From the IMG/VR virus record IMGVR_UViG_3300049044_000033, positions 158,796 to 222,795 of that record: 64,000 bases of DNA, one strand, 5' to 3'. Below, piece after piece: positions 3,001 to 6,000 of this stretch; position 1 is the stretch's first letter; each line of letters starts with the position of its first letter. Made by a program: the position numbers. The DNA comes from a virus (taxonomy: Duplodnaviria > Heunggongvirae > Uroviricota > Caudoviricetes).

Positions 3001-6000
3001 GCCACAAAACGATGAATCGAACCTGGTATGAGAATGCTATCAGCTACAATATTCGTGAGAGGAACTTCGCCGGTCGGAATGAGGTATTGAGTTGTCTCTT
3101 CCTCGCCTGCAATTGCGAATAGATCTTCACCAAACTTAGGCAGCTGGGCTGTTCCATAGAGTGCTTCAGCGTTCACGATCACAGGAGGAATAACCTCCTT
3201 AAACTTGCGAGCAATATGCCTGTCGAGCATAAACTGACCAAGGGCACGATGTAGACGCGCAACACCTCCACCCAACATAGAGAAGCGAGCACCGGAGATC
3301 TTTGCCGCAGCATCCATGCCGAAGTCTAGATCCATTTCCCAGTGAGGGATACCGACCTTAAGGTCTTCGAGGTATGGTCGGTACTCGCGAATCTTCAGAT
3401 TCTGGCTTTCATCCTTGCCCTCAGGGACCTCAGAAGCAGCAACATTGGGACACTGTAGCAAGTTGTATTCGAGTATCTCGACATTGCTCTTGAGCGTATT
3501 TTCCCAATAGAGAAGGTTGCCCTTGTGGACTGCTACTCCGGCCTTTAGAGCCCCGGCGGTATTATGATCACCGGCCTTCATAGCCTGACCAATCTGGTTA
3601 CTCAGATCCTTAATGAGATTTCGGATCCTGTCGATCTCAGTCTGAGCTTTTCGACGATAGTCATCATATTTGAGGATTACCTCACTCATCGGTTGATGAC
3701 CTCGAGCTACCATGGCAGCATCAAAAGCCGTTGGATCGTCTCGGATAGACTTGATGTCAAAATGATATTTCATACCAAACTTTTACGACGTTCTGCATTC
3801 TTGTCAACCACAAGGAAGCCCCGAAGTTTCCTCCGGGGCCTTCTTAACTAAGTTCTAAGGCTTAGGAGCGAACGTCAAACTCGAAAGTCCGAACCTCACC
3901 CGCGAACTCGACCTGCACACCGACCGTCAGAGGAAGCCGACCCTTGATCTTCCGAACCACAGCTTTGCCGCCATATGAGTTCTCGGGATCGATAGTGGTC
4001 GTCTGAAGAATCTCATCCTTCAGATTTTCCAAGGTCCGCTGAAGACCAATCTGGCTTGCTGCGATCGCCACACCACCGGCGCCCAAAGTAGCAACCTGGC
4101 CGCCTGAGAGTCCCGGTCGACTGATGACCGTGGTCGACGAACCCCAAGAACCGTGGCTGCGAATATAGGTGTTATTATCCTGGGCGGCCGCTGCTGCGCC
4201 TGCCAGCATAGCGTAGCCGATCTGCGACCACATCGCGCGGCTCTTCGCCTTCTTCTCGAGTTCATTTTTCGTGAAGCAGGCATATTGTGTGCCGCCGTTG
4301 ATCACGGAAACGTTTTCGATGCCGAAATTCACCGGCGCGCCGCTCTTGTTGTAGGCCAGGACCATGAACTGCAGACTGCCGTGGTCGAGTGTTTCGATGG
4401 GAACAACCCGAACCGAGCCGTACTTCAGATCATCTTCGATCGTCGGAATGCCCTGATGGTACCGCAGAGTCTGTCCTTCTGTTGGTCGCGCCGTGAATTC
4501 GAGTGAGTTCTGATCTGCTAATGCTGGCGTGGAAATTGCTGCCAACGCGATAGCAGCAATACTGAAAAGCTTACGAAACATTTTACGATCTCCCCGTTAG
4601 TGGAAGCACCAACTTATAGGAGAAATCCTGTTTGTCAACTGTGGATATTCACTCATGGTGAAACCCGGTCCGTTTCCGAACCAGGCTTCATTCATTTGGG
4701 GCAGGATGAGAATACTCCTGCTTACACCGGCCTTCGAGCATTATCCCCAAGTATGACCTCGGTTTTCTCTCGATTTCCACTACCAGTAGCCAAGGCAGTC
4801 TAGTAGTATCCGGCAAAGCCGCTTCCAATTTATATACCGCTGGCAGTAGCGGTGACCCTGCAATGCTATTCAGCAACGTCTGTTCACGCCAGCCTTCGCA
4901 GACTGTTAAGGGGTTGCGCCCCAACATAAACTCTTCTACTGAAGCCGTCGGGATTTCGGTCCCTTCAGCCCCTCTGTTAGCCGTAGCCCAGAGGATTAGG
5001 CTTCTTTCGCCCCTAAAAGGGACTAGCAAAGCAAGCGAGTTAGGCTTTCGATTTTTGGTCGTCAGACACAGCAGTTTGACTATTTGAACCCATTACGATG
5101 TGCTAACTCAGTGGCTTCATTGGCTTTTGACCAACAAAATACCACACACCACGTATCTCAACCCTTGCGAGGTCTTGATCATTTTTCAGGAACTGTCTAA
5201 GTTGCCTTAGCCAACCCCTTAAAATTGCCGAACGCCCTTGGTGCAATCCTCGGACTAAACGACTATCTCTTACCACTCGGTACTGACCATATTTCGCTGG
5301 AACCGTCGGGTTGCGAAGCCCGTTAGTAAGCCGCTTGTCGCCACTTACCTTATACCAACTTTCGTTGGAACAGATATCCTATGGTGTCCTACCTATCCCC
5401 GCTACCTTGTTTAAGGGCTCGAGGAACTTCCTTTTGGGAAGTAGGTTGAGACTTGCTTGGTGAGTCGACAAACTTACGTCTATCGTGGAACCTATTGGGT
5501 TTCGGTTCCTTTCCATTAGGTTACCCTAATGTTACTCAATAGCGGCCCCAAGCGGCCAAACTTTCTAACTCTGTTGCTGACCACTTTAACACCGAAGTAT
5601 CTAGCTGTCAACAACTTTGTTTCGATCGTTGCCTCTGCGGCACAGAAGCAAAACTCTAGTTAGCCCTCATCGTTTTCCAAGGATAGTTGTTCCCGTTGGA
5701 AACTCCCGACCTTGTTCTACTCTTGCTAACCTTCGTAGTGCTCTGCACCGCGTTGGTCTCACTCTTATACGGAAACTTGTTAGGTGAATCAACATAAAAA
5801 TTAGATTATTTTGAAATTATTTTCACCAGGGTTATTCATGGTTTTGGGCCCCCGATGATTTCTCACCAGGAGCCCAACGTCATGAGCTTTCGCTCTACGA
5901 TTTCAGGGTGTTGGGTGTTTGGCTCACGAAGTCCAACTGACCTACTAACCCTTATTTTAGCCACTGTAGTGCGACCTACGGAAGCAAACCGATCTAGAAA

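What the first reader, a model, noticed from the sequence alone, without database searches (positions are those of the whole stretch)
4655..5576. ~0.9 kb promoter-to-hairpin non-coding structured RNA
A clean sigma70 promoter precedes about 920 nt with no credible ORF and dense short helices capped by GNRA-type loops (GAAA, GCAA, GCGA), ending in a strong hairpin. The size and tRNA-rich phage context recall giant ornate RNAs (GOLLD, ROOL), but I cannot assign a family from memory. With the array at 6088 this forms about 2 kb of non-coding DNA in an otherwise dense genome.
Basis: partly seen in the sequence, partly recalled or inferred. Interest (0 to 1): 0.75.

Follow-up and report, generated by a model that had tools for sequence, protein, structure and literature searches.

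The report
GOLLD cage RNA of huge phage
The gene-free stretch encodes GOLLD, a known giant phage RNA that assembles into hollow cages and has no known job; it is read from the opposite strand to the one proposed and belongs to a divergent branch carried by 0.4-Mb phages.

Summary
Window 4660-5576 is a real, ORF-free, highly structured RNA gene, but on the MINUS strand. Rfam's GOLLD model (RF02032) matches 5152..4703 end to end at 171.1 bits (gathering score 150, E 1e-47). The roughly 420 nt upstream on that strand (5576..5153) is the 5' domain.

Five further homologous lineages were found: four in uncultured phage contigs, three of them 417-465 kb long, and one in the cultured Sinorhizobium phage Phosso. 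They share a consensus fold of 239 base pairs, 111-113 of them with compensatory changes. The helices are 93.6% canonical on the minus strand and 79.2% on the plus strand.

A TTGACA-17-TGnTAAAGT promoter (5611..5583) and a 3' GAAA-capped hairpin (4689..4660) are conserved.

The branch scores low against Rfam (150-187 bits; 15 of 16 ordinary environmental GOLLDs scored 217-335). It keeps the canonical base of the 5' domain. The canonical middle 5' subdomain is not detectable.

The function of GOLLD is unknown. Cage assembly here is inferred from family membership, not shown.

This scan has noted GOLLD many times on other DNA. Verdict: a new member, in a divergent branch, of a known family. Interest is modest.

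The parts
5606..5611 (-). -35 hexamer TTGACA of the GOLLD promoter
   Evidence: Promoter scan. Invariant in 6 of 7 homologues although the spacer varies. It belongs to a GTTGTTGAC motif found 4 times in the window, always on the minus strand, against 0.42 expected.
5583..5591 (-). Extended -10 element (TG-n-TAAAGT), 17-nt spacer; inferred start of transcription at about 5577-5575
   Evidence: The homologues have TAAAGT, TAAGTT, TACTTG or TACTTT at the same spacing. Sequence conservation of the RNA starts just downstream. The start site is inferred, not measured.
5450..5561 (-). Base of the 5' domain (canonical GOLLD 5' subdomain 1): a 5' hairpin, a GUAA hairpin, a hairpin with the 11-nt loop GAAACCCAAUA, a GNRA hairpin, and a long-range stem GCUUGG (5553..5548) : CCAAGC (5460..5455)
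   Evidence: Model R2, built from 20 ordinary GOLLDs, gives its best match at the homologous place in every lineage: Phosso 33.5 bits (E 9e-8), L051 25.9, G002 21.3, G001 16.5, L052 12.5, window 10.7 (E 0.05). The long-range stem is canonical in 7 of 7 sequences, with two independent compensatory changes.
5153..5449 (-). Distal part of the 5' domain, specific to this huge-phage branch: a multi-helix junction plus two further stems
   Evidence: The whole 5' domain (5576..5153) has 105 consensus pairs, 91.3% canonical, 55 with compensatory changes. Canonical subdomain-2 model R3 finds nothing credible here or in any relative, although it does detect other divergent GOLLDs.
5093..5152 (-). P13/P14 hairpin that opens the conserved 3' domain (Rfam model positions 1-62)
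   Evidence: Rfam alignment. Almost invariant among the 7 homologues.
5037..5092 (-). Variable linker J13/15. Here it is only a small hairpin plus an A-rich tract, with no tRNA.
   Evidence: Rfam alignment positions 63-136. No tRNA match at E<=1. In Phosso the same slot holds a tRNA-like element.
4703..5036 (-). Core of the 3' domain (P15 onward), including the invariant GCGA loop (4899..4896) and the conserved 9-nt terminal loop GUAUUCUCA (4715..4707). An 18-nt extra hairpin at about 5026..5009 is variable within the branch.
   Evidence: Rfam RF02032 match over model positions 1-416. 107 consensus pairs, 95.7% canonical, 50 with compensatory changes. Loops listed.
4660..4689 (-). 3'-terminal 13-bp hairpin with a GAAA loop (terminator-like or end-protecting); the RNA probably ends here, giving about 917 nt
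   Evidence: 97% canonical, with 5 pairs compensated across homologues. Phosso has a GC hairpin plus a U5 tract at the same place. There is no U-tract in the window, so termination is inferred.
4611..4638 (-). Promoter-like site (TTGACA, then TATAAGTT 14-16 nt later) for the downstream 239-aa gene.
   Evidence: Sequence read directly and the motif list. It did not pass the scanner's thresholds.

Best explanation
Window 5576..4660 (minus strand) is a stand-alone gene for a roughly 917-nt GOLLD RNA in a 462-kb phage with terminal repeats.

Inferred from sequence: host RNA polymerase starts at a sigma70-type promoter (5611..5583). The transcript folds into two domains joined through the P13/P14 hairpin and a variable linker, and ends at a conserved GAAA-capped hairpin. 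The domains are a 5' domain (5576..5153) and the family-defining 3' domain (5152..4703).

Inferred by homology with the solved GOLLD structures: copies of the RNA self-assemble through kissing loops and A-minor contacts into a closed, protein-free cage of 10-14 subunits. The 5' domains form the caps and the linker points into the cavity.

Biological role: unknown for the whole family. My best guess (about 35%) is that the cage holds or shields components of the phage's translation and tRNA programme during lytic growth. The guess rests on its constant company of tRNA islands, tRNA-like inserts in the linker, and here a neighbouring seryl-tRNA synthetase gene.
For: - Identity: RF02032 matches end to end at 171.1 bits (gathering score 150), E 1e-47, as the only copy in the genome.
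- Strand: fold z-score -5.85 on minus against -1.08 on plus. The consensus helices are 93.6% canonical on minus against 79.2% when read on plus, because 263 G-U cells become A-C. The consensus-fold energy is -218 against -122 kcal/mol.
- Selection: seven aligned sequences, representing six lineages including the window, give 239 consensus pairs. 111 to 113 of them have compensatory changes. Sliding the partner column drops pairing to 34-44%.
- No conserved ORF.
- The promoter hexamers and the 3' hairpin are conserved while the sequence between them varies.
- The 5' base is canonical.
- Context is typical of GOLLD: a phage genome, 55 tRNA genes on the same strand, and a seryl-tRNA synthetase gene about 0.9 kb downstream.
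- Cage assembly and lytic-phase accumulation are taken from the literature (PMC12286853, PMC12990946, PMC7567579).
Against: - Start, end and abundance are therefore inferred.
- The 3' hairpin lacks a U-tract.
- A second conserved promoter about 180 nt upstream could give a longer precursor.
- The Rfam score is only 21 bits over threshold, and one close relative (G001) scores 149.6, just under it.
- The canonical middle part of the 5' domain is not detectable. The cap of any cage, and so its subunit number, cannot be assumed.
- In the one prophage tested in the literature, GOLLD was dispensable for phage production (PMC7567579, citing Weinberg 2009).
Confidence: 0.93

Rival explanations
1. GOLLD fold used as a long structured leader. 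The RNA is not a stand-alone product but the 5' part of an mRNA for the downstream 239-aa secreted-looking protein (3862-4581), and/or starts at the upstream promoter at 5792..5764.
For: The 3' hairpin has no U-tract. The same downstream gene follows GOLLD in two other lineages (G002, L051). A conserved promoter lies 180 nt upstream, with no terminator before the GOLLD promoter.
Against: A TTGACA/TATAAGTT promoter-like site lies between the hairpin and the gene. Phosso has a classical terminator after its GOLLD and a different downstream gene. G001 showed no match to that gene in the 1.4 kb held downstream of its GOLLD. GOLLD RNAs studied so far are discrete RNAs (PMC12286853).
Confidence: 0.06
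2. The plus-strand RNA proposed by the first reader, running from a promoter before 4655 to a hairpin near 5576.
For: Helices are partly self-complementary on either strand. The plus-strand consensus fold still gives 192 pairs.
Against: No plus-strand promoter. Plus-strand z-score is only -1.08. Pairing falls to 79.2% on plus and the G-U pairs become A-C. The Rfam match is on the minus strand only.
Confidence: 0.01
3. A decaying, no longer functional GOLLD relic.
For: Low Rfam score relative to ordinary GOLLDs (171 bits; 15 of 16 others scored 217-335). The canonical middle 5' subdomain is not detected.
Against: Six lineages 69-80% identical to one another keep 94% of pairs, with over 110 compensated pairs, and keep the promoter and the end hairpin. 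That pattern indicates purifying selection on structure.
Confidence: 0.02

Closest known systems
GOLLD RNA, Rfam RF02032 (Weinberg et al. 2009); env-38 GOLLD 14-mer cage (PDB 9MEE, PMC12286853)
   Same: - Full-length match to the 3'-domain model.
- Two-domain layout of about 0.9 kb, with a variable J13/15 linker after P13/P14.
- Conserved terminal loop GUAUUCUCA.
- Canonical base of the 5' domain.
- Phage genome rich in tRNA genes.
   Different: - Scores 171 bits, where 15 of 16 ordinary environmental GOLLDs scored 217-335.
- The canonical middle 5' subdomain (model R3) is not detectable.
- Extra hairpins at about 5026..5009 and near 4840-4815.
- The host is a 462-kb phage.
- The oligomeric state is untested.
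Streptococcus agalactiae GOLLD (12-mer full length, 10-mer 3' domain; PDB 9L0R, 9LMF; reviewed in PMC12990946)
   Same: A GOLLD whose 5' domain departs from the consensus. It shows that changes in the 5' domain alter subunit number while the 3' domain is kept.
   Different: The Sag RNA is shorter (700 nt) and lacks P9, P11a-c and P21b. The present RNA is longer (about 917 nt). Its distal 5' domain could not be mapped helix by helix onto either solved structure with the tools at hand.
Unannotated GOLLD of Sinorhizobium phage Phosso (PV764938.1, about 33134-34001)
   Same: Same branch, alignable over its full length. Rfam 186.6 bits. It sits in a 469-kb cultured phage, in a gap between annotated genes.
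   Different: Phosso carries a tRNA-like element (Rfam tRNA 54 bits, UCU anticodon loop, weak acceptor stem) in the linker, where the window has a small hairpin. It has a classical U-tract terminator. It lacks the upstream small RNA and the hairpin-array RNA.
ROOL RNA (RF03087; octameric cage)
   Same: A large ornate phage or prophage RNA found near tRNA genes. It forms a cage and its function is unknown.
   Different: Unrelated sequence and fold. No Rfam match here at E<=1.

Membership tests
GOLLD RNA (Rfam RF02032) | Covariance-model score for the conserved 3' domain (P13-P27) at or above the curated gathering score, over the whole model | tested here: met
   171.1 bits against 150, model positions 1-416 of 416, E 1e-47, minus strand 5152..4703.
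GOLLD RNA (Rfam RF02032) | The helices of the 3' domain are maintained by compensatory change in relatives | tested here: met
   107 pairs, 95.7% canonical, 50 with changes on both sides, in 7 sequences.
GOLLD RNA (Rfam RF02032) | A structured 5' domain of about 400 nt precedes P13 on the same strand | tested here: met
   5576..5153: 105 pairs, 91.3% canonical, 55 compensated. Fold z-score -5.85.
GOLLD RNA (Rfam RF02032) | The 5' domain is homologous to the consensus GOLLD 5' domain (P1-P12) | tested here: inconclusive
   Base subdomain: yes. Model R2, built from 20 ordinary GOLLDs, hits the homologous site in all 6 lineages at 10.7-33.5 bits.

Middle subdomain: model R3 gives no credible hit in any of them, although it finds other divergent GOLLDs at 28-36 bits.

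The models have few effective sequences (1.3), so a miss is not proof of a different fold.
GOLLD RNA (Rfam RF02032) | Variable linker J13/15 between P13 and P15, sometimes carrying a tRNA | tested here: met
   The linker at 5092..5037 varies in length and sequence among relatives. Phosso has a tRNA-like insert there. The window has none.
GOLLD RNA (Rfam RF02032) | Phage or prophage location, usually near tRNA genes | tested here: met
   A 462,455-bp virus record with direct terminal repeats. 55 tRNA genes on the same strand, starting 5 kb upstream.
GOLLD RNA (Rfam RF02032) | Self-assembly into a closed RNA-only homo-oligomer (10-14 subunits) | not testable with these tools
   Known for env-38 and S. 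agalactiae GOLLD (PMC12286853, PMC12990946). It needs mass photometry or cryo-EM of this transcript.
GOLLD RNA (Rfam RF02032) | A discrete, abundant transcript that accumulates during lytic growth | not testable with these tools
ROOL, OLE, group I/II introns, other Rfam families | Any covariance-model match in 4400-7000 | tested here: not met
   At E<=1 the only matches are GOLLD and a chance 16-bit match to a Brucella sRNA model.

The most novel reading that the evidence does not exclude
The huge-phage branch of GOLLD has rebuilt the distal 5' (cap) domain while keeping the 3' ring and the base of the 5' domain. It would therefore form a cage of a new size or symmetry.

It would also act together with the two co-oriented neighbouring RNA genes: a small RNA driven by a conserved promoter directly upstream, and the hairpin-array RNA at 6088-6640. 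These could be cargo or partners, making the 2.1-kb gene-free block a multi-RNA device of giant phages.
Probability: 0.12. Interest if true: 0.65.

Novelty: new member of a known kind. Interest (0 to 1): 0.3.

Why it matters
GOLLD is one of the largest bacterial and phage non-coding RNAs and one of the few natural RNAs known to build a closed cage without protein. Nobody knows what it is for.

This copy adds nothing categorically new, but it has three uses:
- It places a divergent GOLLD branch in phages of 0.42-0.47 Mb that also carry dozens of tRNAs, aminoacyl-tRNA synthetases and other RNA genes.
- It shows that the branch includes a cultured phage (Sinorhizobium phage Phosso) whose GenBank record leaves the RNA unannotated. 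Knock-out, RNA-seq and pull-down experiments are therefore possible in a laboratory host.
- It gives a natural comparison for testing how the cap domain sets cage size: the same 3' ring and 5' base, but a different distal 5' domain, with or without a tRNA-like insert in the linker.

For annotation, it corrects the strand and explains about 0.9 kb of a 2.1-kb gene-free block.

Tried and rejected
- Pattern scans of IMG/VR with motifs shared by the window and Phosso gave only chance matches with no GOLLD.
- The 239-aa downstream protein found no relatives through peptide patterns. A tblastn search with an 863-aa window protein found no useful phage relatives.
- blastn against 50,697 phage records found only Phosso.
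- The genome search 'relatives' is not available for a virus record.
- Model R1, built from the branch's own 5' domain without Phosso, recovered Phosso at only 9 bits. Its silence on 41 other GOLLD loci is therefore uninformative.
- Sequence-only nhmmer profiles of our 5' and 3' domains barely detect ordinary GOLLDs, even in the 3' domain. Sequence comparison cannot settle 5'-domain homology.
- ARAGORN does not call the tRNA-like insert in Phosso's linker.
- Expression could not be examined.
- Rejected readings: a hammerhead-led GOLLD as noted elsewhere in this scan (no ribozyme match at E<=1); a tRNA in the window's linker (none); coding potential.

Full report
**What is there**

Between the gene at 3862-4581 and the gene at 6751-7536 (both minus strand) lies about 2.1 kb without a credible ORF. 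Rfam's gathering-threshold scan of the whole window gave one non-tRNA match of weight. This was GOLLD (RF02032) on the minus strand at 5152..4703: 171.1 bits against a gathering score of 150, E 2.6e-46, covering model positions 1-416 of 416. A permissive scan of 4400-7000 gave the same match at E 1.1e-47 and nothing else credible.

The Rfam model covers only the conserved 3' half of GOLLD. The variable 5' half should therefore lie upstream on the minus strand, at 5153 to about 5576. The window lies in a 462,455-bp virus record with direct terminal repeats, and this is its only GOLLD.

**Strand**

The 5' half folds far better than shuffled sequence on the minus strand (z -5.85). On the plus strand it does not (z -1.08).

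In the 7-sequence alignment, the consensus helices form canonical pairs in 93.6% of cells when read on the minus strand. That figure includes 263 G-U cells. The same helices read on the plus strand drop to 79.2%, because G-U becomes A-C. The consensus-fold energy is -218 against -122 kcal/mol.

**Ends**

The promoter scan found one site in 4300-7000: minus-strand TTGACA-17-TAAAGT with an upstream TG, at 5611..5583. It found none on the plus strand.

- The hexamers are conserved in six of the seven aligned sequences while the spacer varies.
- The -35 element is embedded in GTTGTTGAC. That motif occurs four times in the window, always on the minus strand, against 0.42 expected.
- Related TGTTGAC-N17-TAnnnT sites precede several minus-strand genes, including tRNA genes.

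This puts the start near 5577-5575 (inferred).

Fourteen nt after the end of the Rfam match there is a 13-bp hairpin with a GAAA loop (4689..4660). It is kept with compensatory changes in the relatives. Phosso has a GC hairpin plus U5 at the same place. The window's hairpin has no U-tract, so termination there is an inference. The RNA would be about 917 nt.

That is a likely promoter of the next gene.

**Relatives and selection**

blastn against phage records found only Sinorhizobium phage Phosso (469 kb). There the match falls in an unannotated 1-kb gap, and Rfam scores a GOLLD at 186.6 bits.

I scanned IMG/VR for the array's motif and reached two huge phages. Rfam on their whole records gave GOLLDs at 164.1 bits (436-kb record G002) and 149.6 bits (465-kb record G001). 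A 24-nt P13/P14 motif added a 417-kb phage, a 40-kb fragment and metagenome contigs.

Seven sequences, representing six lineages including the window, align over the full length. The five IMG/VR and metagenome sequences are 69-80% identical to the window; Phosso is more distant. RNAalifold gives 239 pairs, 111 of them with changes on both sides.

| Region | Pairs | Canonical | Compensated |
|---|---|---|---|
| 5' domain | 105 | 91.3% | 55 |
| 3' domain | 107 | 95.7% | 50 |

Sliding the partner column by 1-3 positions drops pairing to 34-44%. No ORF is shared in position or strand. This is an RNA under selection for structure in both halves.

**How ordinary is it?**

A scan for the generic P14 hairpin motif returned 80 IMG/VR loci. 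41 of them have a complementary stem and the conserved terminal-loop motif at the right distance. All 16 that I passed to Rfam are GOLLDs. Fifteen score 217-335 bits and one scores 172. The huge-phage branch scores 150-187. It sits at the edge of the family model, and one member falls just below threshold.

To test the 5' domain I built two covariance models from 20 ordinary GOLLDs.

- Model R2 covers the base of the 5' domain. Its best hit falls at the homologous place, on the right strand, and covers the full model in every lineage: Phosso 33.5 bits (E 9e-8), L051 25.9, G002 21.3, G001 16.5, L052 12.5, window 10.7 (E 0.05 in 2.2 kb).
- The R2 alignment revealed a long-range stem, GCUUGG (5553..5548) with CCAAGC (5460..5455). 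It is canonical in 7 of 7 sequences, with two independent compensatory changes. The flanking local hairpin also covaries, so this is a pseudoknot or an alternative fold.
- Model R3 covers the middle 5' subdomain. It detects other divergent GOLLDs at 28-36 bits, but finds nothing credible in the window, Phosso or the other relatives.

Both models have few effective sequences. I therefore read this as 'base canonical, distal 5' domain not demonstrably canonical'. That fits the literature's description of a variable 5' domain (PMC12286853, PMC12990946).

**Linker**

The J13/15 slot (5092..5037) holds only a small hairpin and an A-rich tract in the window. No tRNA is detected at E<=1. In Phosso the same slot holds a tRNA-like element: Rfam tRNA 54.1 bits, anticodon loop CUUCUAA, three non-canonical acceptor pairs, and not called by ARAGORN. 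tRNAs embedded in this linker are known from other GOLLDs (PMC12286853, PMC12990946).

**Mechanism**

Shown here:
- family membership;
- strand;
- conserved two-domain fold;
- conserved promoter and end hairpin;
- phage and tRNA context, with 55 tRNA genes on the same strand and a seryl-tRNA synthetase gene downstream.

Taken from published work on other members:
- RNA-only assembly into closed cages of 10-14 subunits, with the 5' domains as caps and the linker inside (PMC12286853, PMC12990946);
- accumulation during lytic growth, and dispensability in one prophage (PMC7567579, citing Weinberg 2009).

Inferred: this RNA assembles likewise, and its role is tied to the phage's tRNA and translation programme. 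Expression could not be checked.

**Verdict**

This is a genuine GOLLD RNA gene on the strand opposite to the one proposed. It belongs to a divergent branch in huge phages. The family is known, and this scan has already noted GOLLD many times on other DNA, so interest is modest. The useful extras are the corrected anatomy, the cultured relative Phosso, and the contrast in the 5' domain and the linker.

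Noticed in passing
window 5612-5794 (minus strand): A second promoter, TTGATT (5792..5787)-17-TATAAG (5769..5764), lies about 180 nt upstream of the GOLLD promoter. It is followed at once by a block (GAGACCAAC.CGG.GCAG.GC) conserved in five huge-phage lineages. The unit is about 145 nt long in the window, G001 and L052, and about 55 nt in G002 and L051. I saw no terminator before the GOLLD promoter. It is either a small structured RNA or a second start giving a 5'-extended GOLLD precursor. Rfam has no match.
   Followed up: partly
window 5800-6080 (minus strand): About 280 nt between the hairpin array and the upstream promoter are also strongly structured on the minus strand only. 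For 5612-6080 the z-score is -6.46 against -1.54 on plus. The stretch is conserved at about 73% in the 465-kb relative G001. It has no family match, and the earlier notes I saw do not cover it.
   Followed up: partly
window 6088-6640 (minus strand): The hairpin array reads best on the minus strand. Its modules carry C(UUCG)G tetraloops and end in CCUAAACCGAGUUU. An earlier follow-up of this scan treats it as a new modular RNA. I only used its motif to reach related phages.
   Followed up: partly
L002 4109-4180 (Sinorhizobium phage Phosso, PV764938.1 about 33598-33669): A tRNA-like element (UCU anticodon loop, weak acceptor stem) is embedded in the J13/15 linker of Phosso's GOLLD. The whole GOLLD is unannotated in the GenBank record.
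   Followed up: partly
window 5493-5503 and 5086-5091 (minus strand): The 11-nt loop GAAACCCAAUA of the 5' domain is complementary over 6-7 nt to the conserved start of the linker (UGGGUU). Both are invariant in six sequences. In Phosso only 4 bp remain. This is a possible tertiary or inter-subunit contact, but there is no covariation to support it.
   Followed up: no
window 27034-27107 (minus strand): One of the 55 tRNA genes has a CUA anticodon (an amber suppressor, labelled Pyl by ARAGORN). Earlier notes of this scan discuss suppressor tRNAs in this phage.
   Followed up: no
L064, L092, L125, L127 (IMG/VR contigs): In several ordinary GOLLD loci a tmRNA gene lies within about 1 kb of GOLLD (Rfam 102-107 bits). 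L110 has two group I introns and a tRNA array beside its GOLLD.
   Followed up: no
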